Made by a program: the position numbers and the translations under genes. Of a DNA stretch of 38,717 nt, positions 5,628-33,908 are shown piece after piece. Under the pieces are notes generated by a model that saw only the letters and a list, made by a program, of their open reading frames with translations, did not search any database and was not told the origin of the DNA. How positions within the stretch are numbered: the stretch's first letter is position 1; each line of letters begins with the position of its first letter. This DNA is from a virus, in the UHGV virus genome UHGV-0007863; one strand, given 5' to 3'.

Positions 5628-5704
5628 TTACCGTTGAGGTAATAATTATGCGTATCTGGTTTGATGTCAATAGATATGAGTTAAAAAAATTACCCGTTAG
5701 GTAA
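5628..5704. promoter_or_regulatory. Two perfect TTACC-N5-GGTAA palindromes (5628-5642, 5690-5704); candidate leftward operator (OL-like)
   Basis: Read directly: TTACC-GTTGA-GGTAA and TTACC-CGTTA-GGTAA in the intergenic gap between the repressor terminator and the leftward operon. Confidence 0.6.
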
Positions 5705-5711
5705 TCAAATA

Positions 5712-5739
5712 GGCAATAAAAAAGCCGCCATGAGGCGGC
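5712..5739 (-). terminator. Rho-independent terminator after the repressor gene
   Basis: Hairpin GCCGCC-ATGA-GGCGGC followed on the minus strand by TTTTTTATT. Confidence 0.6.
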
Positions 5740-5761
5740 TTACTTACTGAAAAATATAGTT

Positions 5762-6346
5762 TTATTGTTTGCTTTTTTCGTTCTGGTTGATGACAAATTC
5801 AATGTAACTTTCGATCTTTGCTTTCTCGGTTTCGGGTAACAATGCGTAGCGTGAGCGGTCATAGTTGATAGTCGCAGGGTCGTGCGGGTGAATCAGTAGT
5901 TCATATCCGTGACGCCCGAATGCGGATGCAACATTCTCCAGGGTGGAAATGGAAACGCTGACCTCATTGTTTAACAGGCGGCTGATTGTCACCTGGGCGA
6001 CGCCGGATGCGCGGTGAAGTTTTCCCTGTGTTGAAAGGTCGCGGCTTTCGCTCATCCAGCGTTCCAGGTTGTGAGCCGCCAGCTGACCTATATCGCTCGG
6101 GCCGACAGGCTGAAAACCCTCCTGAGAAAGCGAACGATCAATATCAAGCCAGTTACGGGGTTTATTGGCGGCAGCTTCAATTTTTCGTGCAACCTGGTCG
6201 CCGATAACCTTCTTGCCAAGAGCCCAGCGGTTTACCAGATTTGCCTGAGTTCCAAGTTTTTCTGCCATCCGCGTCTGAACACCATTGAATTCACGGTCGA
6301 TCAAGTCGTTGAGATTTTGCCTGCGGACGTCCTGGATACTTTTCAT
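5762..6346 (-). CDS. Prophage repressor (CI-like) with two HTH-like segments and no recognisable S24 peptidase domain
   Basis: 194 aa; HTH-like segments GVQTRMAEKLGTQANLVNRW and SGVAQVTISRLLNNEVSVSISTLENVASAF; no Ser-Lys dyad domain seen; divergent from a cro-like gene. Confidence 0.7.
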   Translation of the reverse strand: MKSIQDVRRQNLNDLIDREFNGVQTRMAEKLGTQANLVNRWALGKKVIGDQVARKIEAAANKPRNWLDIDRSLSQEGFQPVGPSDIGQLAAHNLERWMSESRDLSTQGKLHRASGVAQVTISRLLNNEVSVSISTLENVASAFGRHGYELLIHPHDPATINYDRSRYALLPETEKAKIESYIEFVINQNEKSKQ

Positions 6347-6401
6347 TTTCTGGAAAATCGCCTCATATATGAATCAGTAGATGATTCAATTTAAAGCAAT
6401 A

Positions 6402-6464
6402 TTACCCAACAGGTAAATGCACCTCATAGGTAACTATCCTTGATTTTTGTTACCTTATGGGTGA
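6402..6464. promoter_or_regulatory. Tripartite operator between repressor and cro-like genes: TTACC-CAACA-GGTAA (6402-6416), GCACC-TCATA-GGTAA (6419-6433), TTACC-TTATG-GGTGA (6450-6464)
   Basis: Three copies of the same dyad in the 154-bp divergent intergenic region, overlapping a -35-like TTGATT at 6440-6445. Confidence 0.65.
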
Positions 6465-6500
6465 ATATTTATTATCTGAAATAAATATCAGGCAATAGCT

Positions 6501-6731
6501 ATGAGCGATAACGGACATTTCGATTTCAAAAAGCACTGGCTTGCACTTACTCCGGATGAGCGTGAAGCCTTCGCACAGGAAGCCGGAACGACGAGTCACT
6601 ATATCCAGACTCACTTAACAGGTAAGCGCAAAATGCCAGGTAAGGTATTGATGAATGGGCTTTTTAAAGCCTGTAAAACAAGACAATGGCTGCGCTCAAA
6701 AGCAGAACTGGCATACTTCTTCTACTCATGA
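6501..6731 (+). CDS. Cro-like HTH regulator
   Basis: 76 aa; divergent from the repressor across the operator cluster; HTH-like AQEAGTTSHYIQTHLTGKRKMP. Confidence 0.6.
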   Translation: MSDNGHFDFKKHWLALTPDEREAFAQEAGTTSHYIQTHLTGKRKMPGKVLMNGLFKACKTRQWLRSKAELAYFFYS

Positions 6732-6753
6732 TATCCAGCTACAACCCTCTGTA

Positions 6754-6778
6754 GACCGCCACCCGGCGGTCTTTTCAT
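6754..6778 (+). terminator. Rho-independent terminator downstream of cro-like gene
   Basis: GACCGCC-ACCC-GGCGGTC followed by TTTTC. Confidence 0.55.
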
Positions 6779-6786
6779 ATCTATTC

Positions 6787-6801
6787 GTACCTCAAAGGTA
6801 A
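6787..6801. promoter_or_regulatory. Near-perfect operator-like palindrome GTACC-TCAAA-GGTAA
   Basis: One mismatch to TTACC-N5-GGTAA; lies between the cro terminator and the next gene. Confidence 0.45.
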
Positions 6802-6879
6802 TAAAAAACCAAATCTGGTTGATCAAATTTTCCAATTGTGCAAAATAGCCAATATCAATAACAAAAAGGGGCGGAAAAA

Positions 6880-7092
6880 TTGAAGATAGTAACCAGAATG
6901 GAGGCCGCAAAAGCCGGGTTAAATCGCTATTTCACAGGAAAGCGGTGCCGTCACGGCCATCTCTCTGAAAGGTATGTTCTGAACGGAACATGTGTTGAAT
7001 GTGCAATGAATAGCGCCAACCGCCATCGTAATGAATTTGCTTGTGCACTAAAGAGTGCAAGAGGGGAAACCTATGGCAAGCAGCTGGATTAA
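6880..7092 (+). CDS. Small Cys/His-rich protein at the cII position
   Basis: 70 aa with C-x-H-G-H ... C-x-x-C spacing suggestive of zinc binding; TTG start with GGGG upstream; overlaps the initiator start. Confidence 0.4.
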   Translation: MKIVTRMEAAKAGLNRYFTGKRCRHGHLSERYVLNGTCVECAMNSANRHRNEFACALKSARGETYGKQLD

Positions 7093-7903
7093 GGTTGAAG
7101 TTATCACTCCTGATAAACCTGAAATTTTTCAGATAGCAGAAATTCTGGGTATTGATCCAGATGCTGTTCTTGGAAAGCTGGTTCGTATATGGGCATGGGC
7201 TGACCAGCAAACAATAGACGGTAACGCTGGCAGCGTTACAAAAGGAGTACTTGATAGACTCGCTTTTATTACAGGATTTGCTGACGCCCTCATTAGCGTC
7301 GGATGGCTTGCTTATCATGACGGCAAACTAATTCTTCCAAACTTTGAGCGACACAATGGAGAATCATCGAAAAAACGTGCACTTACGAATAGAAGAGTGG
7401 CAGAGCATCGAAAACGAGTAACGCAAAAAGTAACGCCAACAGCGTTACAAAAGGAGTTACCAGAGGAAGAGGAAGAGGAAGATATATATAAAACCCCACA
7501 CATAGCGCACGTGCGCGAGGGTGCTCCGACCAGTGAAGCGAACGGTATGCCGTTGCAGGTGGCTGAACCTGAATTTCTGGATGGCCTGAGTGAACCCATC
7601 GGGAAATTTCCGATGACCGATGGCTGGCATCCGTCGCCGGATTTTCGACGGCGTGCTGCGCTGTGGGGAACGGCCCTGCCGGAACCGGAATTTACACCTG
7701 CTGAACTTGCTGCATTCCGGGATTACTGGATGGCTGAGGGCAAAGTGTTCACGCAGGTTCAGTGGGAACAAAAATTCGCCAGGCACGTAAATCATATCAG
7801 GGGAAAATCAAAAAACGCCGGGAAAAGCGATGAGCTTGACTGGAATAACACTGACTGGATAGAAGGGGTGTGGGATGAAATCAACTCCAGAACTTCTCAA
7901 TGA
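7073..7903 (+). CDS. Putative replication initiator (O-like) with internal iteron-like repeats
   Basis: ATG at 7073 with AGAGGGG Shine-Dalgarno; lies immediately upstream of the P-like gene; acidic linker PEEEEEED; function inferred from synteny and the internal repeats. Confidence 0.55.
   Translation: MASSWIKVEVITPDKPEIFQIAEILGIDPDAVLGKLVRIWAWADQQTIDGNAGSVTKGVLDRLAFITGFADALISVGWLAYHDGKLILPNFERHNGESSKKRALTNRRVAEHRKRVTQKVTPTALQKELPEEEEEEDIYKTPHIAHVREGAPTSEANGMPLQVAEPEFLDGLSEPIGKFPMTDGWHPSPDFRRRAALWGTALPEPEFTPAELAAFRDYWMAEGKVFTQVQWEQKFARHVNHIRGKSKNAGKSDELDWNNTDWIEGVWDEINSRTSQ
7221..7494. repeat. Candidate origin of replication inside the initiator gene
   Basis: GTAACGC half-sites at 7221(+), 7233(-), 7418(+), 7430(+), 7442(-); two copies of a ~28-bp unit GTAACGC-N5-GCGTTAC-AAAAGGAGT (7221-7248, 7430-7457) read in different frames; then (AGAGGA)x3 at 7462-7479 and an AT-rich GATATATATAAAA. 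Confidence 0.4.
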
Positions 7904-8651
7904 GTACGATCGCTTACGTGAGCATGGTGTTGCTGTGCATGAAGAGCGGCGTGACAGCAATGGCAAAAAGGAGCAGGTTGCTAGAATTTTCAATGAACTA
8001 TTTGTCCAGTTACAGGCTGCATTTCCTGCAAGCGTTTCGACCATAAGGGAGCAGAACAAACTTAATGAATTCCGTAAGCAATGGATGCTTGCGTTTCTGG
8101 AGAATGGGATCACAACAATGGAACAGGTTAACGCTGGTATGCGCCACGCCCGCGCCAGTGAATCTCCGTTCTGGCCGTCGCCAGGGCAATTTATCAAGTG
8201 GTGTAAAGACAGCAAGATGGTTCTTGGCGTCACCATTGACGATGTGATGGCGGAGTTTCACCGGTACAGCAAGGAAAAAAGTTTATATCCTGGTGGTCCC
8301 GAAAGATTCCCGTGGCGGCATCCGGTTATGTACTGGGTCGTATGTGATACCCGCCGTGCAATGTATCAGCGCCAGCTTAGCGAGATTGAGGTTGAGAAAC
8401 ACGCGCGCAGGCTGCTCGATGATTGGGCGAAAAAGGTGGCTTCCGGACAGCAGATACCCGATCCGGTGATCAGCATACAGGCAAAGCCAGAGCCCATGAG
8501 TACACCTCCGGACACAGGGAGAGACGTTTACCACCCGCCAGGGCGAAGTTTCGGGTGCATGCCTAACGCCGCCACCCTGGGGGGAATAACACCGGCGCAG
8601 TGGCTGATGGAGGAATACAGGCGGGGAAAGGCGGCAGGATTTATCAAGTAA
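7875..8651 (+). CDS. Lambda P-like replication protein (replicative helicase loader)
   Basis: 258 aa; FPAS..REQNKLNEFRKQWMLAFLENGITTMEQVNAGMRHARASESPFWPSPGQFIKWCK closely parallels the lambda P N-terminal region as recalled. Confidence 0.8.
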   Translation: MKSTPELLNEYDRLREHGVAVHEERRDSNGKKEQVARIFNELFVQLQAAFPASVSTIREQNKLNEFRKQWMLAFLENGITTMEQVNAGMRHARASESPFWPSPGQFIKWCKDSKMVLGVTIDDVMAEFHRYSKEKSLYPGGPERFPWRHPVMYWVVCDTRRAMYQRQLSEIEVEKHARRLLDDWAKKVASGQQIPDPVISIQAKPEPMSTPPDTGRDVYHPPGRSFGCMPNAATLGGITPAQWLMEEYRRGKAAGFIK

Positions 8652-8688
8652 TACCAGCGCGATAGCGCATTTTTTTACGTCTCGATGA

Positions 8689-8765
8689 TTACCTTCTGGG
8701 TAATAAAATATTCTAAAATCTATTGATTTCGTGTCTTATGTGGTTTTTAATTACCTCTTGGGTAA
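8689..8765. promoter_or_regulatory. Two perfect TTACC-N5-GGTAA palindromes (8689-8703, 8751-8765) upstream of the nin-like block
   Basis: TTACC-TTCTG-GGTAA and TTACC-TCTTG-GGTAA; the second ends 3 nt before the ATG at 8769; preceded by a weak GC hairpin plus a 7-T run at 8657-8676. Confidence 0.6.
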
Positions 8766-8768
8766 ATC

Positions 8769-9113
8769 ATGAGAAAACAGATACAGGCTCTTGGTCGACT
8801 CAAAACAGGCCAGATGAACAAAACAGAATCTGCGTATTGCCAGCACCTTGAGCAGCGTAAACGTGCAGGGGAAATCGCCTGGTATCGATTCGAGGGTATC
8901 AAGCTGCGGTTAGCTGACAACACGTTCTATACGCCCGATTTTGCTGTGATGCTCGCCACCGGCGAGATGGAACTGCACGAAGTGAAAGGTTTCTGGACCG
9001 ACGACGCCAGGGTGAAAACCAAAGTCGCCGCAGATCAGTATCCGTTCCGAATCATCGGGGTAACGGTTAAACCAAAGAAAGCAGGTGGTGGCTGGAACAT
9101 CGAAGAGTTCTGA
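8769..9113 (+). CDS. DUF1064-like protein (nin-region family, possible nuclease fold)
   Basis: 114 aa; pattern KAGEI..W.FE...L.....YTPDF.V......E..EVKG matches recollection of the family. Confidence 0.5.
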   Translation: MRKQIQALGRLKTGQMNKTESAYCQHLEQRKRAGEIAWYRFEGIKLRLADNTFYTPDFAVMLATGEMELHEVKGFWTDDARVKTKVAADQYPFRIIGVTVKPKKAGGGWNIEEF

Positions 9114-9174
9114 ATCGACGATCTTTTTAGTTATCAATGTAATCAATAAGTTATGTGGATAAGCGAGGGTAAAG

Positions 9175-9717
9175 ATGGAAAGTAATATCAAAGGGTTAGT
9201 TTCCGCCGGGCATGAGATGGCTTCGGAACTGAAAGCAGAATGTGGTGCCGTTGATATGCGTAGTGTGGCAAAGCTGATCAGCGATTTGGCAACGAAACTG
9301 GAAGTGCAACTGGTGCGTGCTAATGCGCTGGCGGCGGAGAATGCTGGGCTGAAAAAGTTCTGTGAAGACGCAGCGTTTGATGCTGATTATGAGTCAGAAC
9401 TTCTTGGAGAACGCGGTGGATTTGTTGATGGGCTTAGCTTGGTAAAAACCCCAGCCACCGACGCTTTCCTGGCTGAAATTCGTGCGGAAGCACGCAACGA
9501 GGGAGTTAACTATACCGCCAGCCGTCTTGCTGCTGCGTTCAATCACGGATTTATCAATAAGTCTTTGCGTGAAGTTTTCGACGTTACACGCATGATTTTG
9601 TCAGCGAAAGAAGAGTTGGCTAATGAAGCGCATCCGATTGATGGCCTGTCTGGTGAATATGCGGAGAAATCCCTTGAAGAATGGGCGGAACAGATTCGCA
9701 AAGGAGCTGACAAGTGA
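9175..9717 (+). CDS. Hypothetical protein
   Basis: 180-aa ORF, co-oriented with neighbours; no motif recognised. Confidence 0.5.
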   Translation: MESNIKGLVSAGHEMASELKAECGAVDMRSVAKLISDLATKLEVQLVRANALAAENAGLKKFCEDAAFDADYESELLGERGGFVDGLSLVKTPATDAFLAEIRAEARNEGVNYTASRLAAAFNHGFINKSLREVFDVTRMILSAKEELANEAHPIDGLSGEYAEKSLEEWAEQIRKGADK

Positions 9718-10124: not shown

Positions 10125-10132
10125 GGCTCCGC

Positions 10133-11381: not shown

Positions 11382-11382
11382 G

Positions 11383-11793: not shown

Positions 11794-11795
11794 TA

Positions 11796-12058
11796 TGGCA
11801 ACTTTAACAAAAAAAGAACGGGCATGGTTGAACGAATTACAGGACGTTCTTGATCGCTGCCCATCACCGAAAAAAATTGGTTTTTACACCATTGGCGATA
11901 AAAGCATTTACCTGTATGACCTGCGCCGCATGGATGAAATCATGGAGGCTCTTGATAATCGTTCGTCAATGGATTGGTGTGTTGCTGTCCATGATATGAA
12001 TGCAGGGTTTGATGAAAAGATTTTGTTCCCCTCATCAGTTGAAAGCACTGCGGGTTAA
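11796..12058 (+). CDS. Hypothetical small protein
   Basis: 87 aa; ATG at 11796 directly after the upstream stop, preceded by the same AAAGGAGAGTGA junction seen at 11370-11382. Confidence 0.45.
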
Positions 12059-12068
12059 GGAGTAACAC

Positions 12069-12833: not shown

Positions 12834-13183
12834 TGGACTATTCACAGTTAAGTGATTTTGAAATTAACAGAATGGTAGGAGACATAATTTTTAAAGGCCT
12901 TTGGGCGTGTAAACCGGAAACATCAGGGAATAACACCAACAAATGGTATTACGGAAATACTGATACAACTTTTGAGCCATTAAACCCTTTACCTGACTAC
13001 TGCAATAATCCATCGGATGCATGGCCTATTATTGTTGATAATAAAATCAGTCTAACCTGCCACCACTCTCGCGGTGAGTGGTCAGCTGTTTTTAATGCCG
13101 AGAACATTTGCTTTCATGCGAATAATCCACTCCGAGCCGCCATGATTGTATTTCTCATGATGCAGGAAAATCAGAATGGCTAA
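12830..13183 (+). CDS. Hypothetical protein (conserved nin-region type)
   Basis: 117-aa ORF with overlapping stop/start; Cys-containing, no catalytic motif recognised. Confidence 0.5.
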   Translation: MMDYSQLSDFEINRMVGDIIFKGLWACKPETSGNNTNKWYYGNTDTTFEPLNPLPDYCNNPSDAWPIIVDNKISLTCHHSRGEWSAVFNAENICFHANNPLRAAMIVFLMMQENQNG

Positions 13184-13514
13184 ATCAGCAGCAGAGCGCA
13201 AAGCCGCTCAGAGAGCCAGACAAGCTGCATCCGGTGTACGTAAGCTGGAGATTGTGCTTGATGCTCAGGAAATTGAAATGCTGGAGCGGAACTGCGCCAC
13301 GCGTCGCCCCGGGCGTGTGCCTTACGAATTTGGTGAGTATATTGCGTTACTTATCCGCCAGGATGATGCACGTGTGCGCGGGCGTATAAAATCGATCAGC
13401 AGAAAACTTTGCGGTAAGTGCGGCGAGAGAGTTCCCGTTAATTCATGCCCGTGTAATGGTGACTCGCAATGCTGGGTGACTAAAGGCTGGCATGAAACGA
13501 AATTAATAGTGTGA
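13176..13514 (+). CDS. Small basic protein with C-terminal Cys cluster (zinc-ribbon-like), at the position where lambdoid phages carry Q
   Basis: 112 aa; basic N-terminus; C-x-x-C ... C-x-C ... C cluster; function not assignable from sequence. Confidence 0.5.
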   Translation: MAKSAAERKAAQRARQAASGVRKLEIVLDAQEIEMLERNCATRRPGRVPYEFGEYIALLIRQDDARVRGRIKSISRKLCGKCGERVPVNSCPCNGDSQCWVTKGWHETKLIV

Positions 13515-13522
13515 CATGTCAC
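13511..13522. repeat. 12-bp perfect palindrome GTGACATGTCAC, copy 1 of 3
   Basis: Read directly; overlaps the TGA stop of the 13176-13514 gene. Confidence 0.7.
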
Positions 13523-13531
13523 GAAGGTGTT

Positions 13532-13744
13532 ATGCCAAAAATACGCTACGACCTTGAAGATATGAGAGATAACTCAGCAAATTTTCCGAAAGAGGTTAAA
13601 TTTCTCATGCATAAGTATGGTTGCGCCAGGAGGGATATAGTTATCGACAGTCAGCACCCTTGCGGCGAGGATGTAATTTTCATTCGCGGTAAATGGGAAG
13701 GGTATCTTGACGAGAGTTTTTACGATGAATTTGATGGACTTTGA
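13532..13744 (+). CDS. Hypothetical protein
   Basis: 70 aa from ATG 13532 with GAAGGTG upstream; the ORF-track GTG start at 13511 lies inside the palindrome. Confidence 0.45.
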   Translation: MPKIRYDLEDMRDNSANFPKEVKFLMHKYGCARRDIVIDSQHPCGEDVIFIRGKWEGYLDESFYDEFDGL

Positions 13745-13749
13745 ATACT

Positions 13750-13776
13750 GCCGCCAACTATGGCGGCTTTATTTTG
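13750..13776 (+). terminator. Rho-independent terminator immediately upstream of the terminase operon
   Basis: GCCGCCA-ACTA-TGGCGGC followed by TTTATTTT. Confidence 0.6.
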
Positions 13777-13786: not shown

Positions 13787-13819
13787 TTACCACAACGGTA
13801 ACTATTACCACGGTGGTTA
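13787..13819. promoter_or_regulatory. Perfect TTACC-ACAAC-GGTAA (13787-13801) plus near copy TTACC-ACGGT-GGTTA (13805-13819) abutting the terminase small-subunit start
   Basis: Read directly; located between the terminator and the ATG at 13819. Confidence 0.6.
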
Positions 13820-15977: not shown

Positions 15978-16349
15978 TTATTGCTCGCTTAACTTCTGCT
16001 TCAGCAAGTAACCTTCAAGCATCCAGATTTTGTTTACAGCATTCTGCCTGGCAATCTTCCGACCAATTTCCGCATCAAAGTTTTCCGGGCTTGCACAGGC
16101 GCTCTCTCCGGTGACGGTGAAGCCGTTGCGCAGCACCAGAACGCAGAACGTCAGCAGAGAAAGTGATTCGTGCGGCTGGTAGTTTACCTCTCCGCCAGTA
16201 TGTTTCGCTTTTATGGCTACGCCAAAGACACCATCTTCTGCTGTGAAATATGCCTCCTGAGCAATAATGCTCTCGATATGGTCTGGCGTAACGCGCGGCG
16301 CGGCTAAACCTTTAGCCTGAATTTCAGATTCAATGTCTTTGTCACTCAT
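15978..16349 (-). CDS. Conserved small phage protein of unknown function, opposite strand to the late operon (moron)
   Basis: 123 aa; AAGGTGAG Shine-Dalgarno; possibly N4 gp49 / Sf6 gp66-like by recollection, unverified. Confidence 0.5.
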   Translation of the reverse strand: MSDKDIESEIQAKGLAAPRVTPDHIESIIAQEAYFTAEDGVFGVAIKAKHTGGEVNYQPHESLSLLTFCVLVLRNGFTVTGESACASPENFDAEIGRKIARQNAVNKIWMLEGYLLKQKLSEQ

Positions 16350-16363
16350 AGTCTATTCTCACC

Positions 16364-16389
16364 TTAAAAAAATGCCCGGCGAACCGGGC
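16364..16389 (-). terminator. Hairpin plus T-run immediately upstream of the 15978-16349 gene
   Basis: GCCCGG-CGAA-CCGGGC with a 7-A run on the plus strand (T-run on the minus strand). Confidence 0.45.
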
Positions 16390-16473
16390 GAACTGGAAGC
16401 AATGAGTTATGCCTTCCGTGGCTGTACTGGTTTACAGCATGAAGTCATCGCAATGGCGTCCTGCTGTAAAAAG

Positions 16474-16509
16474 GGCGGTGATAGTCCTTCAAGTGAAACT
16501 ATCACCGCC
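16474..16509. repeat. Perfect 12-bp inverted repeat GGCGGTGATAGT / ACTATCACCGCC with a 12-nt spacer, about 44 nt downstream of the tRNA 3' end
   Basis: Read directly; likely a processing or termination structure for the tRNA transcript. Confidence 0.6.
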
Positions 16510-16552
16510 AAGCCCCTGGAACTTCTGGCATCACGGTCCTTAGGCGTGATTC

Positions 16553-16629
16553 TGGCGTGGCATGCAGGATTCGAACCTGCGACCAACCGCTTAGAAGGCG
16601 GTTGCTCTGTCCGACTGAGCTAATGCCAC
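16553..16629 (-). tRNA. tRNA-Arg (anticodon UCU), phage-encoded
   Basis: Manual cloverleaf: acceptor GTGGCAT/ATGCCAC, D-arm GCTC-AGTCGGACA-GAGC, anticodon arm ACCGC-CTTCTAA-GCGGT, T-arm GCAGG-TTCGAAT-CCTGC, discriminator G, encoded CCA; 77 nt. Confidence 0.85.
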
Positions 16630-16951
16630 AACGCTGAGAGCACTTAGCCTGTTAAGGCGCCACACTTTGTCGCGGCTCCATAAATGCTCTCATCGTTGTA
16701 CCCTCGTCTCTTCCGAGGCGTCACACCGAATCGCCGGGATGGTGAATCCCCGTGCGCGGAATAAAACCGCTCGACTTGCACATTCCGGCTACCTGGTTCG
16801 TTTGCCCGAGCAAGGGAGGGTGCCCCTTAAACGTATCCAGACCGCTATCGTCGCATGTGCCACACGCCGTACTGCTCAAAATAAAAGCTCACTCCACCTG
16901 TTCAATTTAACGACAAGCCAGTCAGGTTAATAACCGGAATGAACTATTTAC

Positions 16952-16966
16952 TTACCTGAAGGGTAA
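16952..16966. promoter_or_regulatory. Perfect TTACC-TGAAG-GGTAA upstream of the portal operon
   Basis: Read directly; about 90 nt upstream of the ATG at 17057. Confidence 0.6.
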
Positions 16967-17056
16967 TAATTCGTGCATTAAATGTCAACTATCTACGATA
17001 AATAAATCATATGTGGTTAAATTGGTAATAATTTAATTGCGTACGGAGTCATTGAT

Positions 17057-28756: not shown

Positions 28757-30555
28757 GTTACTTTGGCCTTAATCCAGTAAACCAGAATCAGCAGCTTGAC
28801 GAAGCAGCATCAAATCCAGCTGGCTTTAACAGCGATGTTGGTTTTTTCGACAATGCTGTAGGAGCGGCATTGTCTGGTTTGTACTCCGGGCTGGTGGCAA
28901 AGCCAGATCAGTTGCTATGGGCAGGGATGGATAAAATCGTATCCCCGATTGCTCAGTTTGTTAACGAAAACACCTCGCTCAATGATACTTCAGTTTCATA
29001 CATTGCCGAGCAGAGAAAACTAGCAGAGCAGCAGGTTAAGCGGCTGACGCCTGATGCCGCGACAACCGGAACCGCTGGGCAGGTTCTTTATGGGTTGTTC
29101 GATATGGGCGGGCAGGCTGTTGTCGGTACAACGCTCGGTGGTCCTGTCGGAGGTGCAGCGGCGGTAACTTCGCTACAGGGTTTTTCTGAGTTTGAACGGC
29201 TGACAGCACAGGGTGTTGATTTCAGGACGGCGCAGGAAGCTGGATTAGTGCAGGGCATTACTGCTGGTGCCGGAACGCTGATCCCTATGAGCCTCGGGTT
29301 ACGTGCTGGTGGTGCGCTGGCGGAAGGTGTGGCGGCTCGGCTTGCGCGGACGGGTGAAAGTTCAGTGCGACGCGCCGCAGCAACAGCAGTACGTGCAACG
29401 CCAGATATTGCCTATGCCGCAGGTACAAATATTGCGTTCGGTATGGCACAGCGTGGGCTTACTGCAAAAACGCTTCGTGATGGTGGCTATAGCGAAATGG
29501 CTAACCAGTATGATGTGTTGGATCGACAGGCAATTGCTATTGATGCTGTTCTTGGGGTGGCGTTTGGTGGTGTCGGCAGATTTATTAACTCTCGCGGTGA
29601 GGCTACAAGCACCCCCAATTTTTCACCAGTTGATGTCGATGCTGCACTGGCGGCGAATGCCGCTCATCATGCTGAAATTGATATTTCTCCCGGCGTGCCG
29701 ATCAACGTGCTTTCGCGCAATTCTCACATTCAGGCTCTGCGAAAAGCTATGTCTGATGTTAGCCAGGGGAGACCTGTAGACGTTGCCAGCATTGTTGAGT
29801 CTGCATCTTTCAGTGAAATTCCTGGGCGCAAGAGTCTGCTGTCTCAGGCAGTTAATGAGGCTCTGTCATCTGTAGATGATGGAGTAACGGCGCGCGCTAT
29901 AGAAAATCGGTTGCTTGAAGAACAGGCCGCGCAGCTTTTGCCGCGTGGAGATAGACAGGTTTACCAGTCTGAAATCGCTAATAGCCAACGAATTATTGAA
30001 AATCTCACTGAACAGCGTGCACAAATTCTTGCAGAAGAGCCAACCGGTAGCGGTAAAGCTTTGTCTCGTGCTCGATCAGATAAACAGGCCAGACTTCGCG
30101 ATATTGATCAACGAATCCGGCAGGCACAAGAACGCCTGGAATTTTCCCGTAACGCGTTGGCACCGCACGAGCCTGGAGGTCAGTTTTTTGAAGCTCGAGC
30201 AGAACTGGCTCGGAGACAGCAGGCAGAAAGTGAACTTAATGCTCAGGCTGTTTCATTCTATAAAACAGCAGAGGTCAGGACGCCAGACGAAGTAGCTCCT
30301 TTTGAGCCTGATAAAATATTGCAACAGGCAGAACAAAAAATGATGGCGGATCAGGCAGGAGATATTGATCTGCGCATAGCTGAAGACTCGCTGCTTGAAT
30401 CACCTGACATGATAATCACCGTGCTGGATGATGATGGTAATCCACAATCGCGCAGCGCGCGTGAAGTACTGGATGAAGCGAACAGGGAAAGTGAGCAGGC
30501 AATACAGGATTCCAGCCTGTTTGATGTCGCTGTGGCGTGTTTCTTGAGAGGTTAA
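28753..30555 (+). CDS. Large internal virion / ejection protein
   Basis: 600 aa; Ala/Gly-rich N-terminal half with a charged helical C-terminal half. Confidence 0.45.
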   Translation: MSYFGLNPVNQNQQLDEAASNPAGFNSDVGFFDNAVGAALSGLYSGLVAKPDQLLWAGMDKIVSPIAQFVNENTSLNDTSVSYIAEQRKLAEQQVKRLTPDAATTGTAGQVLYGLFDMGGQAVVGTTLGGPVGGAAAVTSLQGFSEFERLTAQGVDFRTAQEAGLVQGITAGAGTLIPMSLGLRAGGALAEGVAARLARTGESSVRRAAATAVRATPDIAYAAGTNIAFGMAQRGLTAKTLRDGGYSEMANQYDVLDRQAIAIDAVLGVAFGGVGRFINSRGEATSTPNFSPVDVDAALAANAAHHAEIDISPGVPINVLSRNSHIQALRKAMSDVSQGRPVDVASIVESASFSEIPGRKSLLSQAVNEALSSVDDGVTARAIENRLLEEQAAQLLPRGDRQVYQSEIANSQRIIENLTEQRAQILAEEPTGSGKALSRARSDKQARLRDIDQRIRQAQERLEFSRNALAPHEPGGQFFEARAELARRQQAESELNAQAVSFYKTAEVRTPDEVAPFEPDKILQQAEQKMMADQAGDIDLRIAEDSLLESPDMIITVLDDDGNPQSRSAREVLDEANRESEQAIQDSSLFDVAVACFLRG

Positions 30556-30560
30556 ATTAA

Positions 30561-33035
30561 ATGAGACAGGAATGTATACAAGCGGTCCAGCAGGCGGCGC
30601 AGCGCACGTTAACGGCGCGAGAAATACAGAACATTGAAGACCGCATTTATCGAAATATGCGCTCCATTGCTCGTGATGACCCGATGTCGTGGAGACAACT
30701 TTCCGAATCAGAGCGGCTATATCGTGCAGCACAATTGGCATCTGAAGAATTACAGCGAGAAGCGGCATTAAGGAAACGTCGTGTGGCCCTCACTATAGCC
30801 GCACGTCAGAGATTGGATAAATTTATCAATAGCTATCAAGGGTCTGATGGGAAACTTGGCGCTCTTAACCGTACTATTGCTTTTAATGCAGACGGTAAAT
30901 CGAATTTCCTCTCTGTTGAATCCAGAACAAAAGCCACTCGTGATTATGCATTGAGTCAATTGCAGGAGGCATTTGAAGCAGTTGATCCTCGCTTTTTTGG
31001 CCTGTTTGAAGATGAAGCTGGCGTGCGTGACCTGGTATATGAAATGCGAGGGCAAAATACTGGCAATGCTAAAGCAAGAAAAGGTGCTAAGGCGTGGAGA
31101 GAAGTGACAGAGCTACTGCGCCGCCGGTTTAATGATGCTGGTGGGGACATTGGCTATCTCGAAAACTGGGGGATCCCTCAACATCATTCTATGGAAAAGG
31201 TTGGGGCGGTATCAAAGGATAAGTGGGTTAGCGATGTTATAGGTAAGCTGGATCGCAAATATTATATCCGAGCCGATGGACAACTGATGAACGATGCCGA
31301 GTTGTCTTCATTTCTTGGAGAGGCTTATAACACGATCGCTACTGGTGGGCTGAATAAGCTTACTGATACCGGAATGCGAATTTCCGGCGCACGTGCTAAC
31401 CGTGGTAATGCATCACGACAGATACATTTCAAAGATGCAGATTCCTATCTGCAATATCAACAACTTTATGGCGATCGCTCTCTATGGGAAATCATGGTCG
31501 GTCACCTGGAAGGTATCAGTAAAGATATTGCACTGGTGGAAACATATGGCCCAAACCCCGATCATGTTTTCCGCTCTCTTCTTGATCAGGTGAAGGCAGA
31601 AACGGCAACAGCTAACCCGAGTAAAACCGGTAAAGTCGAGCGGCTGGCGAACAACACAGAGAATCTGTACAACTTTATTTCCGGAAAGACACAGCCTGTA
31701 GCGAATCCGCACATCGCGCGATGGTCTGACAATATCCGCAACTGGCTGGTTGCCAGCAGACTCGGATCCGCGTTGCTGTCATCGTTCTCTGATCTTGGAA
31801 CCATGTATCTGTCTGCGAAGGTGACCAACCTTCCAATGAACCAGTTATTCCGCAACCAGCTTGAAGCTATGGACCCAACGAACCGTACAGAACTTGCGCG
31901 GGCGCGCCGCGCTGGTCTGGCGATGGAATCTCTACTTGGCAGCGTTAACCGCTGGGCGATGGATAATATGGGGCCGTCTGTGTCTCGTTGGGCTGCAACG
32001 GCGGTAATGCGTGCCAGTGGGCTTACAGCATGGTCAGATGCGCACAAGCGCGCCTATGGCGTAACCATGATGGGAAGCCTGGGAGAAGTAGTGTCACGGA
32101 CACCAGACCTTCGTAGCCTCGATGATTCTGATTTTCGTATCCTGAAAAGCAAAGGGATTACTGACACAGACTGGAGCGTATGGAAGCTGGCTCAACAGGA
32201 GGACTGGGGGAACGGCAATAATACGATGCTGACACCGGAAAGCATTATGCGTATCCCTGATTCAGCAGTTAAACATCTTGGTGAGCCTGAACGCGTGAAA
32301 TTTGAGGCAATGCGTAAACTGCTCGGTGCCGTAACTGAAGAAGTTGATATGGCTGTTATTACACCGGGAGCACGTGAGCAACTGATAACCGGTTCTGGTA
32401 TTCAGCGTGGAACATGGAAAGGTGAATTAACGAGAAGTGTTTTCCTGTTTAAATCGTTCCCTATCTCGGTGGTTATGCGTCACTGGTCACGCGCTATGGG
32501 TATTCCGTCTGCTGGTGGGCGTGCGGCATATATTGCGACGTTTATTGCCAGTACGACCATTCTTGGCGCTTTGTCGCAGCAACTTAACGACCTTGCGTCT
32601 GGTCGTAATCCTCGCGAGATGACAGGAGAAGATGCTGCTAAATTTTGGCTTGGTGCTCTACTGAAAGGTGGTGGTCTTGGCCTTTACGGTGACTTTTTAT
32701 TGTCAGATCACACTAGGTACGGAAGCGGCGCACTGGCGTCGATGCTTGGCCCGGTAGCTGGTCTGGTTGATGACGTAGTGAAGATTGCTCAGGGCATACC
32801 GTTAAATGCTGTGGAAGGGAAGAATGAGCAGACTGGTGGTGATCTGGTTAAGCTGGGGAAAGGTCTGATGCCAGGTGCGAATCTCTGGTACTTAAAGGCG
32901 GCTCTCGATCACATGATCTTTAACCAGATGCAGGAGTATTTTTCACCAGGTTATTTGCGTAAAATGGAGCAACGTTCGAAGAAAGAGTTTAACCAGACAT
33001 ACTGGTGGCGACCACAGGATGTCACTCCGCAATAA
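30561..33035 (+). CDS. Large internal virion / ejection protein (T7 gp16 position)
   Basis: 824 aa; last gene before the moron island and tail fiber. Confidence 0.45.
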   Translation: MRQECIQAVQQAAQRTLTAREIQNIEDRIYRNMRSIARDDPMSWRQLSESERLYRAAQLASEELQREAALRKRRVALTIAARQRLDKFINSYQGSDGKLGALNRTIAFNADGKSNFLSVESRTKATRDYALSQLQEAFEAVDPRFFGLFEDEAGVRDLVYEMRGQNTGNAKARKGAKAWREVTELLRRRFNDAGGDIGYLENWGIPQHHSMEKVGAVSKDKWVSDVIGKLDRKYYIRADGQLMNDAELSSFLGEAYNTIATGGLNKLTDTGMRISGARANRGNASRQIHFKDADSYLQYQQLYGDRSLWEIMVGHLEGISKDIALVETYGPNPDHVFRSLLDQVKAETATANPSKTGKVERLANNTENLYNFISGKTQPVANPHIARWSDNIRNWLVASRLGSALLSSFSDLGTMYLSAKVTNLPMNQLFRNQLEAMDPTNRTELARARRAGLAMESLLGSVNRWAMDNMGPSVSRWAATAVMRASGLTAWSDAHKRAYGVTMMGSLGEVVSRTPDLRSLDDSDFRILKSKGITDTDWSVWKLAQQEDWGNGNNTMLTPESIMRIPDSAVKHLGEPERVKFEAMRKLLGAVTEEVDMAVITPGAREQLITGSGIQRGTWKGELTRSVFLFKSFPISVVMRHWSRAMGIPSAGGRAAYIATFIASTTILGALSQQLNDLASGRNPREMTGEDAAKFWLGALLKGGGLGLYGDFLLSDHTRYGSGALASMLGPVAGLVDDVVKIAQGIPLNAVEGKNEQTGGDLVKLGKGLMPGANLWYLKAALDHMIFNQMQEYFSPGYLRKMEQRSKKEFNQTYWWRPQDVTPQ

Positions 33036-33231
33036 GGAAGTGTTGTGTTTTTAATTATTTTGAGTGTGATAATTTCTGGTGTATTGTTATTTATTGACCG
33101 CTACAAATATTTTCTTAACCCTCAGACTCAAGCTATTTGCTGGTTCATCTTTGTTGTGCAGGGAGTAGTTCTTGTTGCAAGCCTTATTGAGGGGAGGCCT
33201 CTTATTTTTACTGGGTAAATTAGGTGACTAC

Positions 33232-33528
33232 ATGCAAGCTATAGGATTCATTGTTTATATCGTCGTTGGTCTTTTTCAGTTGGCAGCAATTATGGCTGGG
33301 CTTGAATCATGGTGGGGATTGCACTGGATAATTGCAGCCCCCATTGCTTTCATCGTGAGCTATATTCCATTTGTTGGAGCGATTGTTGGTATGGTTGGCG
33401 CTGTGGATGTATGGCGGTGGGAGTGGTGGCAGGCTGGCCTTCTCTTCTTTGGTGGGATCATCTTTGCTATTGTCTGCGGTGGAATGTCATCATTTTTCGA
33501 ATGGCTATCATTCAGAAAAGGGACGTGA
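33232..33528 (+). CDS. Small polytopic membrane protein (moron)
   Basis: ATG 33232 with AGGTGA upstream; 98 aa, almost entirely hydrophobic; preceded by an AT-rich stretch at 33036-33231. Confidence 0.5.
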   Translation: MQAIGFIVYIVVGLFQLAAIMAGLESWWGLHWIIAAPIAFIVSYIPFVGAIVGMVGAVDVWRWEWWQAGLLFFGGIIFAIVCGGMSSFFEWLSFRKGT

Positions 33529-33536
33529 CATGTCAC
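33525..33536. repeat. 12-bp perfect palindrome GTGACATGTCAC, copy 3 of 3
   Basis: Read directly; overlaps the TGA stop of the membrane-protein gene. Confidence 0.7.
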
Positions 33537-33537
33537 A

Positions 33538-33562
33538 GGCCGCTTTCGCGGCCTTTTCTTTA
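33538..33562 (+). terminator. Rho-independent terminator after the membrane-protein gene
   Basis: GGCCGC-TTTC-GCGGCC followed by TTTTCTTTAT; overlaps the 3' end of the convergent minus-strand gene. Confidence 0.6.
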
Positions 33563-33817
33563 TGTGGTTTGTTTTCGTAATTGTTCGGCACAATAGTCGA
33601 GATGTGTTTGCAGATCCCGCATAGACATCTGTGAGCTGGTGACGTAGTTAATCAGTGCAGTCAGTTCGGCAAGTGGGCCATCGACATTAAATCCATCCTT
33701 ATCGAGATCCCGGAGTAATTTCATCAAGTGCGATCCTTCCACCAGTGACCTGACGCCTCCCGGCGTGTGAATCCTTTCGGTAAATCCGTCTTCCAGTGGA
33801 TAGTGATACTGCTGCAT
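33560..33817 (-). CDS. Small LexA-box-associated protein; candidate SOS-inducible antirepressor
   Basis: 85 aa from ATG 33817 (MQQYHYPL...), GGAG 8 nt upstream; ORF track gives a TTG start at 33835; a LexA box sits 20-40 nt upstream; function is inference. Confidence 0.5.
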   Translation of the reverse strand: MQQYHYPLEDGFTERIHTPGGVRSLVEGSHLMKLLRDLDKDGFNVDGPLAELTALINYVTSSQMSMRDLQTHLDYCAEQLRKQTT

Positions 33818-33836
33818 CTTATCTTCTCCATGCAAT

Positions 33837-33856
33837 AACTGTATATTTATACAGTA
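33837..33856. promoter_or_regulatory. LexA (SOS) box AACTGTATATTTATACAGTA
   Basis: CTGT-N8-ACAG with AT-rich spacer; 18/20 to the consensus TACTGTATATATATACAGTA; overlaps the likely promoter of the minus-strand gene. Confidence 0.75.
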
Positions 33857-33893
33857 TCAAATAATTTGTTTGCTATCCAGCACGTTTTGCAAA

Positions 33894-33908
33894 TTACCTG
33901 AAAGGTAA
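33894..33908. promoter_or_regulatory. Perfect TTACC-TGAAA-GGTAA upstream of the tail-fiber gene
   Basis: Read directly; a half-site GGTAA at 33955-33959 follows. Confidence 0.6.

What the first reader, a model, noticed from the sequence alone, without database searches (positions are those of the whole stretch)
5628..33908. Genome-wide 15-bp palindrome TTACC-N5-GGTAA at the head of nearly every transcription unit, with an OR1-OR2-OR3-like triplet at the immunity switch
Eight perfect copies read directly (5628, 5690, 6402, 8689, 8751, 13787, 16952, 33894) plus near copies at 136, 6419, 6450, 6787 and 13805. A fixed 10-base pattern is expected about 0.04 times by chance in 38.7 kb. All perfect copies are intergenic; my manual scan found only one 1-mismatch copy inside a gene (36865-36879, in the putative holin). 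Three copies sit between the divergent repressor and cro-like genes, two at the leftward early promoter, and others directly before the nin-like block, terminase, portal and tail-fiber genes. Flanks extend it to A-TTACC-N5-GGTAA-T, typical of a dimeric HTH operator. Lambda-type repressors act only at OL and OR, so operator-like sites at late promoters would mean the repressor (or Cro) silences the whole genome directly, analogous to mycobacteriophage L5 stoperators. No Q-like antiterminator is recognisable, and the terminase operon is preceded by a terminator and then two sites.
Basis: partly seen in the sequence, partly recalled or inferred. Interest (0 to 1): 0.85.

Follow-up and report, generated by a model that had tools for sequence, protein, structure and literature searches.

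The report
Repressor operators at every phage promoter
The repeated palindrome is real and is almost certainly the binding site of this prophage's master repressor, placed at nearly every promoter, but the same sites were already annotated in the related phage epsilon15, so it is a known feature of a very common E. coli prophage.

Summary
In detail: there are 8 perfect TTACC-N5-GGTAA copies (0.04 expected), and the 11 best-scoring sites all lie in the ~6-7% of the window that is non-coding. The window is an integrated phiV10/epsilon15-type (Uetakevirus) prophage. The epsilon15 GenBank record already annotates this palindrome as "repressor" binding sites before terS, portal, tailspike, PL and the nin-like block. 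The repressor is not lambda-type. It is a homolog of the tetrameric SPC32H Rep (PDB 5D50, E 3.5e-42), and the window also has the Ant antirepressor (87% identical) behind a perfect LexA box. The half-site tracks the Rep DNA-binding domain: a Pseudomonas lambda-like phage with a Rep-type DBD uses TTACC-N4-GGTAA, but only at OL and OR. Geometry is rigid. Operator pairs 62 bp apart bracket PL and P-nin in all six genomes compared. A full operator lies exactly 62 bp (92/92 sequences) or 50 bp (87/88) from a promoter-embedded pseudo-operator at the portal and tail-fibre units. Direct repression of late promoters is plausible but unproven: those operators sit near -70, the lysis promoter here has no full operator, and a second conserved palindrome (AACC-N6-GGTT) and a Zn-finger regulator remain unexplained. 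Novelty is low and the stoperator analogy is poor.

The parts
136..150 (.). Variant operator TTACCTTAAAGGTAT, 43 bp upstream of the int start, between the att region and int
   Evidence: The same GGTAT variant sits at the same place in all six genomes.
5628..5642 (.). OL-proximal operator; its first base on the minus strand is the last base of the PL -10 hexamer
5642..5670 (-). PL promoter TTGACA-17-AATTAT (10/12 match), bracketed by the two OL operators
5690..5704 (.). OL-distal (auxiliary) operator, centre 62 bp from 5628 and 19 nt upstream of the -35
   Evidence: The 62-63 bp spacing holds in all six genomes.
5762..6346 (-). rep: SPC32H/epsilon15-type repressor with an N-terminal HTH DNA-binding domain, a middle dimerisation domain and a C-terminal tetramerisation/Ant-binding domain; no S24 domain
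   Evidence: 5D50, E 3.5e-42, residues 1-190; domain roles from PMC9986798; conserved NLVNRW.
6402..6416 (.). OR3-like operator (perfect), nearest rep
6419..6433 (.). OR2-like operator (GCACCTCATAGGTAA, 2 mismatches), 17 bp from OR3-like
   Evidence: orthologous sites are perfect in epsilon15, SPC32H and BUCT711.
6450..6464 (.). OR1-like operator (GGTGA variant) lying in the spacer of PR
   Evidence: This position is degenerate in every genome.
6447..6475 (+). PR promoter candidate TTGTTA-17-TATTAT
6501..6731 (+). Cro-like small HTH protein (phrog_35); possible second binder of the operators or of the second palindrome
6787..6801 (.). Variant operator GTACC...GGTAA after terminator 6753-6772, upstream of promoter candidate TTGATC(6819-6824)-16-CAAAAT(6841-6846) for the replication genes
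   Evidence: The same (G/A)TACC variant occurs in four of the six genomes compared (window, phiV10, Tyrion, BUCT711); the epsilon15/SPC32H equivalents score below the scan thresholds (visible only in the flank).
8689..8703 (.). P-nin distal operator
8723..8751 (+). P-nin promoter candidate TTGATT-17-TTTAAT, with the same geometry as PL (operator, 19 nt, -35, 17 nt, -10 abutting the second operator)
   Evidence: Read directly from the sequence printed.
8751..8765 (.). P-nin proximal operator, 62 bp from 8689, ending 3 nt before the start codon of the DUF1064 gene
13176..13514 (+). gp49-like regulator (phrog_536): basic N-terminus plus a C-terminal Cys cluster, second-to-last ORF of the early-right operon upstream of terS (a 77-aa ORF, 13511-13744, intervenes); candidate late regulator
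   Evidence: annotated as 'transcriptional regulator' in TL-2011b and Tyrion.
13750..13767 (+). Intrinsic terminator ending the early-right operon
13787..13801 (.). terS operator 1 (perfect)
13805..13819 (.). terS operator 2 (GGTTA variant), 18 bp from operator 1, ending 2 nt before the terS ATG
   Evidence: The second site is degenerate in every genome.
16952..16966 (.). Portal-unit operator (perfect)
17009..17036 (+). 28-nt block ATATGTGGTTAAATTGGTAATAATTTAA, invariant across four host genera. It contains pseudo-operator TGGTT-N5-GGTAA (17014-17028), whose centre is exactly 62 bp from the operator centre
   Evidence: (92/92 distinct sequences have an operator at 62 bp).
33560..33835 (-). ant: antirepressor, 87% identical to SPC32H Ant
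33839..33854 (.). Perfect LexA (SOS) box CTGTATATTTATACAG just upstream of ant
   Evidence: Its centre is 54 bp from the operator centre in 64/88 sequences.
33894..33908 (.). Operator between the divergent ant and tail-fibre genes (best-scoring site in the window)
33944..33964 (+). Pseudo-operator TGGTT-N5-GGTAA (33944-33958) abutting the invariant -10 candidate TAGAAT (33959-33964). Its centre is 50 bp from the operator centre
   Evidence: (87/88 distinct sequences).
36657..36694 (+). Lysis-operon promoter core: half-site GGGTAA only, palindrome AACCATAAATGGTT, then TATCAT/CATAAT -10 candidates. There is no full operator here, unlike phiV10, epsilon15, SPC32H and Tyrion

Best explanation
The palindrome A-TTACC-W5-GGTAA-T is the operator of the prophage's master repressor Rep (5762-6346). 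Rep is an SPC32H/epsilon15-type protein that binds palindromic DNA through pairs of N-terminal HTH domains and assembles into tetramers through a C-terminal looping-type domain.

In the lysogen Rep occupies operators at essentially every promoter region: int, PL, PRM/PR, the post-cro replication promoter, P-nin, terS, portal and ant/tail-fibre. At the early promoters PL and P-nin, a proximal operator overlaps the -10/+1 and an auxiliary operator lies exactly 62 bp upstream, so one tetramer can hold both and clamp or loop the promoter. At PR the weak site lies in the spacer and is backed by two upstream sites. At terS two sites 18 bp apart cover the stretch between a terminator and the start codon. 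At the portal and tail-fibre units a strong operator near -70/-80 is paired at a fixed distance (62 or 50 bp) with a degenerate pseudo-operator that overlaps the core promoter.

Induction does not go through RecA cleavage. DNA damage removes LexA from the box at 33839-33854, Ant is made, and Ant dismantles the Rep tetramer, freeing all promoters.

Shown here: the sites, their positions and spacings, their conservation, the Rep/Ant/LexA parts, and the link between the DBD family and the half-site. Taken from the literature: the Rep tetramer, Ant action and LexA control. Inferred: Rep occupancy of each site, looping, and direct repression of late promoters.
For: Statistics and intergenic exclusivity.

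Prior annotation: epsilon15 GenBank features 'protein_bind, repressor, lysogeny' lie at the orthologous sites before terS, gp3/portal, tailspike, PL (x3) and gene 43, and they carry the same motif.

Family-wide conservation: the motif is the top hyphenated palindrome in all six Uetakevirus genomes, including a Klebsiella phage whose Rep is 44-45% identical, at orthologous positions and with position-specific weak variants.

Rep identity: homologous to 5D50 over its full length with no S24 domain. The N-terminal DBD is strongly conserved, with NLVNRW invariant, while the rest diverges, which matches the invariant half-site. Per PMC9638917, Rep binds palindromic sites as a tetramer whose DBD pairs come from different dimers. 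Per PMC9986798, it has a DNA-looping-type tetramerisation domain.

Induction parts: Ant is 87% identical to SPC32H Ant and there is a perfect LexA box.

Independent link of DBD to half-site: Pseudomonas phage PseuP_224 cI has a Rep-type DBD (39% identity, E 1e-12) and TTACC-N4-GGTAA operators only at its OL and OR. Low-GC phages place TTACC-N5-GGTAA between an XRE cI and cro.

Motif tracks the regulatory module: portal-related podophages without Rep lack the motif.

Promoter geometry: PL TTGACA-17-AATTAT lies between the OL pair and PR has a site in its spacer. The 62-bp pair spacing holds in six genomes. An operator lies exactly 62 bp from the portal pseudo-operator in 92/92 sequences and exactly 50 bp at the tail-fibre unit in 87/88, despite unalignable upstream flanks.

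Experiment in a relative: overexpressing a 99.5%-identical Rep in ZX5 abolished free phage and cut holin and endolysin mRNA by more than 99.9%.
Against: No binding experiment for any of these sites could be read. The SPC32H and epsilon15 primary papers are not held, so I did not verify that the DNA used there is this palindrome. PMC9986798 states that the repression mechanism is 'not extensively characterized'.

At the portal, tail-fibre and lysis units the full operator is about 58 bp upstream of the best -10 candidate, a position more typical of auxiliary operators or class I activator sites than of occluding operators. The left half of the pseudo-operator (TGGTT) does not resemble TTACC, and it belongs to a second conserved palindrome.

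The lysis promoter of this window and of ZX5 has no full operator, yet ZX5 lysis transcripts are silenced by Rep. At least part of late silencing is therefore indirect.

The conserved spacings (17, 18, 30-31, 48, 50, 62 bp) are not all in helical phase.

The Cro-like HTH protein is just as conserved and could bind the same sites.
Confidence: 0.7

Rival explanations
1. Dual-use sites. The same palindromes are also, or at late units mainly, bound by the Cro-like HTH protein (6501-6731) during lytic growth. Where a site overlaps the -10 or spacer (PL, P-nin, PR) this shuts early transcription down. Where it sits near -70/-80 of promoters that lack a -35 (tail-fibre, lysis, portal), it acts like an upstream (class I-type) activator site. 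One motif would then serve both as the early off-switch and the late on-switch, and Rep at those sites would mainly block the activator.
For: The Cro-like protein is highly conserved, with an invariant HTH segment AGTTSHYIQ.HLT, and is classed as a transcriptional regulator. The late-unit operators are at a fixed distance upstream of the best -10 candidates: 58 bp at the tail-fibre unit and at the phiV10 lysis unit, and 58 or 68 bp at the portal. The late promoters lack a recognisable -35. From my own knowledge, in lambda-type switches Cro and CI share operators.
Against: There is no evidence that this protein binds this sequence. The only outside test case (PseuP_224) was inconclusive, with marginal similarity of its cro-position ORF (p about 0.02). 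The lysis promoters of the window and ZX5 have no operator at all, so such activation cannot be obligatory. The epsilon15 annotators assigned the sites to the repressor.
Confidence: 0.15
2. Late-unit sites act as roadblocks or insulators rather than promoter operators. Late promoters would be intrinsically off without an early phage activator (for example the gp49-like Zn-finger protein or the factor that binds AACC-N6-GGTT). Rep bound after terminators (6787, 8689, 13787/13805) and at unit heads would only stop read-through and leaky transcription. This is the nearest sense in which the sites work like stoperators.
For: The arrangement of terminator followed by operator recurs at 5722-5741/5690 (minus strand), 6753-6772/6787, the hairpin plus T-run before 8689, and 13750-13767/13787. 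The terS pair lies between a terminator and the start codon, with only a weak promoter candidate. A regulator gene lies close upstream of terS. A second conserved palindrome is present at all late promoters, even where no operator exists. ZX5 lysis genes are silenced without a local operator.
Against: The sites are symmetric and are also placed classically over -10/+1 at PL and P-nin and inside the PR spacer. The strict 62/50-bp coupling to core-promoter blocks at the portal and tail-fibre units points to an interaction with the promoter itself, not a simple roadblock. No activator function has been shown for any candidate.
Confidence: 0.12
3. The motif is not a transcription-factor site. It could instead be a recombination linker at mosaic junctions, replication iterons, a packaging signal, or a restriction/methylation target.
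For: The sequence upstream of the portal operator is unalignable among relatives while the operator and downstream sequence are conserved, so the site marks a mosaic junction. Similar 18-bp units form tandem iterons in two unrelated viral contigs (L022, L025). The phage encodes DNA methylases.
Against: There are no tandem arrays here. The sites are single or paired at promoter-specific spacings and overlap -10 or spacer elements. Three lie between rep and the cro-like gene. The half-site tracks a repressor DBD family in an unrelated phage. Position-specific weak variants are conserved across genera, which fits tuned affinities.
Confidence: 0.03

Closest known systems
Epsilon15 repressor-binding sites (GenBank AY150271.2 features; Kropinski et al. 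2007, Virology 369:234, not readable here)
   Same: The same 17-bp palindrome ATTACC-N5-GGTAAT at the orthologous positions (before terS, gp3/portal, tailspike, PL, gene 43), with the same interpretation (repressor, lysogeny).
   Different: The record annotates only 7 of the 15 sites I find in epsilon15. It omits the three between the repressor and gene 39, the lysis and int sites, and the second P-nin site. The phiV10-type records carry no such features. As far as I could check, binding has not been shown.
Salmonella phage SPC32H Rep-Ant-LexA switch (PDB 5D50/5D4Z; Kim & Ryu 2013; Kim et al. 2016)
   Same: A full-length Rep homolog (E 3.5e-42), Ant 87% identical, a LexA box in front of ant, and the same operator set in the SPC32H genome. 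Rep is a tetramer that binds palindromic sites and is dismantled by Ant.
   Different: This window's Rep is only about 43% identical overall, with the DBD better conserved. The genome-wide operator layout and its spacing rules are not described in the papers I could read.
Lambda CI/Cro with tripartite OR and OL
   Same: Three sites between divergent repressor and cro-like genes, a site inside the PR core, and operators at a leftward early promoter.
   Different: No S24 autocleavage domain and operators at 8-9 promoter regions rather than two. No N or Q. The PR-proximal site is the weakest rather than the strongest. PseuP_224 shows what the lambda-type layout looks like with the same half-site.
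Mycobacteriophage L5 gp71 stoperators (from my own knowledge)
   Same: One repressor with many sites spread over the genome, including the late region.
   Different: Stoperators are asymmetric 13-bp sites, orientation-dependent, lie inside transcription units and block elongation. Here the sites are symmetric, strictly intergenic and tied to promoter cores.
Dispersed-operator repressors and global plasmid regulators: P1 C1, phiC31 c repressor (conserved inverted repeats), RK2/RP4 KorA/KorB (from my own knowledge; KorA/KorB also in PMC2665229 and PMC11790492, listed)
   Same: A single repressor controls many separate promoters through copies of one operator.
   Different: The proteins are unrelated. 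P1 operators are asymmetric and P1 late genes are controlled through an activator. No tetramer-matched 62-bp pairing is known to me in those systems.
Auxiliary-operator looping systems: lac O1/O3, gal OE/OI (from my own knowledge); Rco of pLS20 with the same TetDloop fold (PMC9986798)
   Same: A tetramer with two DNA-binding units, a main operator over the promoter core and an auxiliary operator upstream.
   Different: A 62-bp centre-to-centre loop would be unusually tight. Looping is not shown here.

Membership tests
Epsilon15/SPC32H-type Rep-Ant-LexA immunity system (Uetakevirus) | Repressor homologous to SPC32H Rep over the DBD, dimerisation and tetramerisation/Ant-binding domains | tested here: met
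   5D50, E 3.5e-42, residues 1-190 of 194 aligned; alignment with epsilon15, SPC32H, Tyrion and BUCT711 Rep.
Epsilon15/SPC32H-type Rep-Ant-LexA immunity system (Uetakevirus) | Repressor lacks a RecA-dependent S24 autocleavage domain | tested here: met
   Searches find only HTH families and no Peptidase_S24.
Epsilon15/SPC32H-type Rep-Ant-LexA immunity system (Uetakevirus) | Small antirepressor Ant encoded divergently from the tailspike/tail-fibre gene | tested here: met
   87% identity to SPC32H Ant. The position matches.
Epsilon15/SPC32H-type Rep-Ant-LexA immunity system (Uetakevirus) | LexA box at the ant promoter | tested here: met
   perfect CTGT-N8-ACAG at 33839-33854, immediately upstream of ant. 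It is conserved at a fixed 54 bp from the operator.
Epsilon15/SPC32H-type Rep-Ant-LexA immunity system (Uetakevirus) | ATTACC-N5-GGTAAT operators at PL, P-nin, terS, portal and tailspike positions, as annotated in epsilon15 | tested here: met
Epsilon15/SPC32H-type Rep-Ant-LexA immunity system (Uetakevirus) | Rep physically binds these palindromes and Ant releases it | not testable with these tools
   Needs EMSA, footprinting or ChIP. The primary papers are not held.
Lambda-type CI/Cro bistable switch | Three operators between divergent repressor and cro genes, overlapping PR and PRM | tested here: met
   Sites at 6402, 6419 and 6450. PR is TTGTTA-17-TATTAT with 6450 in its spacer. PRM was not mapped.
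Lambda-type CI/Cro bistable switch | Repressor with a C-terminal S24 domain cleaved through RecA | tested here: not met
Lambda-type CI/Cro bistable switch | Operators confined to OL and OR, with late genes controlled by N/Q antitermination | tested here: not met
   Operators occur at 8-9 promoter regions. No antiterminator family was found. PseuP_224 gives the contrast.
Mycobacteriophage L5-type stoperators | Asymmetric site, with orientation correlated to the direction of transcription | tested here: not met
   The site is a perfect inverted repeat and is found identically on both strands.
Mycobacteriophage L5-type stoperators | Sites lie within transcription units and block elongation | tested here: inconclusive
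   All strong sites are at unit heads. Those that follow terminators (6787, 8689, 13787/13805) could also block read-through. The function was not tested.

The most novel reading that the evidence does not exclude
A Q-less temperate podophage runs its whole programme from two short palindromes. A looping tetrameric repressor clamps every promoter by holding a strong operator and a promoter-embedded pseudo-operator at a fixed 62- or 50-bp distance. A second, undescribed palindrome (AACC-ATATAT-GGTT, or its half CATATNTGGTT), present at PL, the post-cro promoter, P-nin and all late promoters, is the site of a lytic-phase regulator (the Cro-like HTH or the gp49-like Zn-finger protein) that turns early promoters down and late promoters on. 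Neither the spacing rule nor the second motif appears in the annotation or papers I could read.
Probability: 0.2. Interest if true: 0.6.

Novelty: already known. Interest (0 to 1): 0.3.

Why it matters
This prophage type sits in about one in ten complete E. coli genomes and in many Salmonella, Enterobacter and Klebsiella strains. It carries O-antigen-modifying genes in its relatives. Knowing that one Ant-sensitive repressor has sites at nearly all of its promoters explains how the prophage stays fully silent without an antitermination cascade, and why SOS induction through LexA and Ant can release everything at once.

The motif and its assignment to the repressor are not new. The parts that could repay experiments are the rigid 62/50-bp operator-promoter geometry, which matches a tetramer carrying a looping domain whose repression mechanism is described as uncharacterised, and the second conserved palindrome at the same promoters.

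Tried and rejected
- **Primary papers.** I tried to read the epsilon15 genome paper (PMID 17825342 / PMC2698709) and both SPC32H papers (PMC3807360, PMC4983836). None is held. I therefore relied on the GenBank features and on citing papers.
- **Literature searches** for the motif string and for Uetakevirus operators found nothing relevant. The ZX5 paper defines no operator.
- **Distant Rep-DBD homologs.** The search for homologous proteins with the 74-aa DBD gave only close or truncated relatives. The search for related loci with the Rep alignment returned only 99-100% identical copies.
- **Paired-operator scan**. This mostly recovered the same phage type. The five exceptions were iterons or unrelated low-GC immunity regions.
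- **Separating Rep from Cro as the binder using PseuP_224.** Its annotated neighbours are unrelated, but an unannotated cro-position ORF is marginally similar. The result is inconclusive.
- **Assigning sigma-70 -35/-10 hexamers to the portal, tail-fibre, terS and lysis promoters.** No consistent -35 emerged, and several -10 candidates remain.
- **Host-factor sites for the second box.** I compared DnaA, IHF, CRP, Fis and sigma-54/sigma-E consensus sequences from memory. None fits.
- **Scan for AACCATATATGGTT in viral contigs.** Of 122 loci, 108 were chance hits in low-GC contigs, which is uninformative.
- **Helical phasing of all spacings.** They are not uniformly in phase, so I make no general phasing claim.

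Full report
**Observation.** At one mismatch there are 13 sites against 0.66 expected. A symmetrised weight matrix places the 11 best sites all in non-coding DNA, which makes up only about 6-7% of the window (my estimate is slightly more once a tRNA-overlapping ORF is discounted). The best in-gene matches score much lower. Over 55 perfect sites from six genomes the consensus is A-TTACC-WWWWW-GGTAA-T, with A/T at the centre in 106 of 110 half-sites.

**What the window is.** It is a phiV10/epsilon15-type temperate podophage (genus Uetakevirus), 97-99% identical to phages ZX5, HEMP4, TL-2011b, phiV10 and phiv142-3. It is integrated. The att core ATTGAGTGGGAATGATT (identified as the att site in PMC9782041) occurs once at 38641-38657, with int at the other end. 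The immunity module is present in 540 of 5,426 complete E. coli genomes.

**Already annotated.** The epsilon15 GenBank record carries 'protein_bind / repressor / lysogeny' features in front of the small terminase, gp3/portal, the tailspike, three at PL and one before gene 43. These are the same ATTACC-N5-GGTAAT palindrome. The motif is the top hyphenated palindrome in all six genomes examined: window 8, phiV10 8, epsilon15 11, SPC32H 10, Tyrion 9, and Klebsiella phage BUCT711 9 perfect copies. It always sits at orthologous positions. I could not read the 2007 paper itself.

**Which repressor.** The 194-aa protein at 5762-6346 is not lambda-like. It aligns over its whole length with the Rep repressor of Salmonella phage SPC32H (PDB 5D50, E 3.5e-42) and has no S24 domain. 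According to papers I could read, Rep has an N-terminal DNA-binding domain, a middle dimerisation domain and a C-terminal tetramerisation domain of the DNA-looping 'TetDloop' type. It binds palindromic sites as a tetramer whose DBD pairs come from different dimers, and it is inactivated by the antirepressor Ant. The repression mechanism is 'not extensively characterized'. The window has the whole circuit: an Ant homolog 87% identical to SPC32H Ant preceded by a perfect SOS box at 33839-33854. Across genera Rep is only 43-45% identical overall, but its N-terminal domain is strongly conserved, with NLVNRW invariant. That explains the invariant half-site.

**Does the motif belong to this repressor?** Within the genus everything is syntenic, so co-occurrence proves little. 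Three outside comparisons help.
1. Pseudomonas phage PseuP_224 is a lambda-like siphovirus with a Q gene. Its cI has an N-terminal domain homologous to Rep's (39% identity, E 1e-12) fused to an S24-like C-terminal segment (GNSMEP, read from the translation). Its operators are TTACC-N4-GGTAA, the same half-sites, and they occur only at OL and OR.
2. Three low-GC viral contigs place TTACC-N5-GGTAA between a classical XRE cI and cro, including inside a TTGACA/-10 spacer.
3. Portal-related podophages without Rep (Cobetia Carin1, Bordetella BPP-1, Vibrio 1.021.A) have no perfect copy and at most two one-mismatch hits (both in Vibrio 1.021.A, both inside annotated CDSs).

So the half-site goes with this HTH family and with the regulatory module, not with the virion genes. 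I could not separate Rep from the Cro-like protein as binder. The Cro-like protein is equally conserved, and PseuP_224 has an unannotated cro-position ORF with marginal similarity.

**Architecture.**
- PL (TTGACA-17-AATTAT, the best promoter match in the early region) lies exactly between 5690 and 5628. The proximal operator starts at the last base of the -10.
- P-nin (8689/8751) has the identical layout: operator, 19 nt, TTGATT, 17 nt, TTTAAT abutting the second operator (sequence).
- The 62-bp centre-to-centre spacing of both pairs holds in all six genomes; the only exception is the 63-bp PL pair of the Klebsiella phage.
- PR has the weak site 6450 in its spacer, with two more sites 31 and 48 bp upstream.
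- The terS pair (18 bp apart) fills the gap between a terminator and the start codon.
- Each position keeps its own weak variant across genera: GGTAT at int, a degenerate PR site, and a degenerate second terS site in all six genomes; (G/A)TACC after cro in four of the six (window, phiV10, Tyrion, BUCT711); TCACC at lysis in phiV10, SPC32H and Tyrion (perfect in epsilon15). This looks like tuned affinities.

**Late units.** At the portal unit a 28-nt block, ATATGTGGTTAAATTGGTAATAATTTAA, is invariant across four host genera. It contains a pseudo-operator, TGGTT-N5-GGTAA. In 92 of 92 distinct viral-contig sequences with this block, a full operator (90 perfect) lies with its centre exactly 62 bp upstream, although the DNA beyond it is unalignable. 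At the ant/tail-fibre region the operator lies exactly 50 bp from a similar pseudo-operator that abuts an invariant TAGAAT in 87 of 88 sequences. It also lies exactly 54 bp from the LexA box in 64 of 88. These fixed distances show that the late-unit operators work together with the core promoters.

The full operators sit about 58 bp upstream of the best -10 candidates, near -70, so on their own they cannot occlude RNA polymerase. A tetramer that bridges to the pseudo-operator would solve this. The left half of the pseudo-operator is not TTACC-like, however.

**Limits on 'direct silencing of everything'.**
- The lysis promoter in this window has only a half-site.
- ZX5 has no operator there either, yet Rep overexpression in ZX5 lowered holin and endolysin mRNA by more than 99.9%. 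At least that effect is indirect or acts at a distance.
- No Q/N-type antiterminator is found. A conserved 112-aa protein with a basic N-terminus and a Cys cluster (phrog_536, 'transcriptional regulator') is encoded close upstream of terS (separated only by a 77-aa ORF, 13511-13744), where a late regulator would be expected.
- A second motif, CATATNTGGTT, has the full form of the palindrome AACC-ATATAT-GGTT. It occurs 12 times against 2.45 expected, and 9 of the 12 are in promoter regions, including late promoters that lack an operator. Its binder is unknown, and a collection scan for it was uninformative.

**Comparison with known systems.** All testable features of the epsilon15/SPC32H Rep-Ant-LexA system are met. 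The system works partly like lambda (a triplet at the divergent switch) but fails lambda's defining features: S24 cleavage, operators only at OL/OR, and antitermination. The stoperator analogy fails on symmetry and placement. Closer functional parallels, from my own knowledge, are dispersed-operator repressors (P1 C1, phiC31 c), global plasmid repressors (KorA/KorB) and auxiliary-operator looping (lac, gal).

**Verdict.** The feature is real and strongly non-random, and its function as the Rep operator set is well supported though not experimentally shown here. It is already annotated in the genus type phage, so novelty is low. The strict spacing rules, the pseudo-operators and the second palindrome are modest new leads.

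Noticed in passing
window 5651-5661, 6807-6820, 8735-8745, 17008-17018, 33938-33948, 33965-33975, 36668-36681: A second conserved promoter-region motif, CATATNTGGTT, whose full form is the 14-bp palindrome AACC-ATATAT-GGTT. It has 12 matches against 2.45 expected, and 9 of the 12 are in regulatory DNA. It is present at late promoters even where no Rep operator exists, and its TGGTT forms the left half of the pseudo-operators. The binder is unknown (Cro-like protein, gp49-like protein or a host factor).
   Followed up: partly
window 13176-13514: A conserved 112-aa protein (phrog_536, 'transcriptional regulator') with a basic N-terminus and the Cys cluster CGKCG...CPC...C, encoded close upstream of terS near the end of the early-right operon (a 77-aa ORF, 13511-13744, lies between). 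It is a candidate late regulator with no Pfam, NCBIfam or PDB match.
   Followed up: partly
window 38641-38657; hairpins at 47-70 and 38682-38709: The att core ATTGAGTGGGAATGATT occurs once near the right end, and near-identical hairpins (AACCCTCTGT...ACAGAGGGTT) sit at both ends. The window looks like an integrated prophage cut just inside attL and just beyond attR (relatives integrate at the 3' end of guaA).
   Followed up: partly
window 16553-16629 (minus strand): A tRNA-Arg (anticodon UCU) lies between the terminase and portal units. It overlaps the mechanical ORF 16333-16623, which is therefore probably not a gene.
   Followed up: yes
window 36143-36720: The segment upstream of the lysis operon differs from phiV10 and epsilon15. 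A 99-aa ORF (36219-36518) replaces the O-antigen-modification genes, and the full lysis-promoter operator of relatives is reduced to the half-site GGGTAA (36657-36662).
   Followed up: partly
L442 (Pseudomonas phage PseuP_224) 10906-10945, 11768-11820, 11851-12081: A lambda-like phage whose cI has a Rep-type DNA-binding domain. It uses TTACC-N4-GGTAA operators only at OL and OR, and it has an unannotated 76-aa cro-position ORF (MRTKNPQLLEWL...GTTRAYL...).
   Followed up: partly
L029, L079, L121 (IMG/VR contigs): Low-GC phage immunity regions use the same TTACC-N5-GGTAA palindrome as clustered operators between an XRE cI-like repressor and a cro-like gene. L022 and L025 have similar 18-bp units as tandem iterons, in L022 inside a replication-protein gene.
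   Followed up: partly
window 16931-16966 and relatives: The portal-unit operator sits at a mosaic junction. DNA upstream of it is unalignable among relatives, while the operator and everything downstream are conserved.
   Followed up: no
window 13000-35000: Megablast of the late region hit 65 Synechococcus phage records at 90-95% identity over some short stretch (possibly the tRNA). I did not examine this.
   Followed up: no
window 2751-3050 and 3160-3408 (minus strand): A PerC/ANR-like transcriptional activator homolog and an AlpA-like regulator/excisionase are encoded in the leftward early operon. I did not examine their roles in phage gene control.
   Followed up: no
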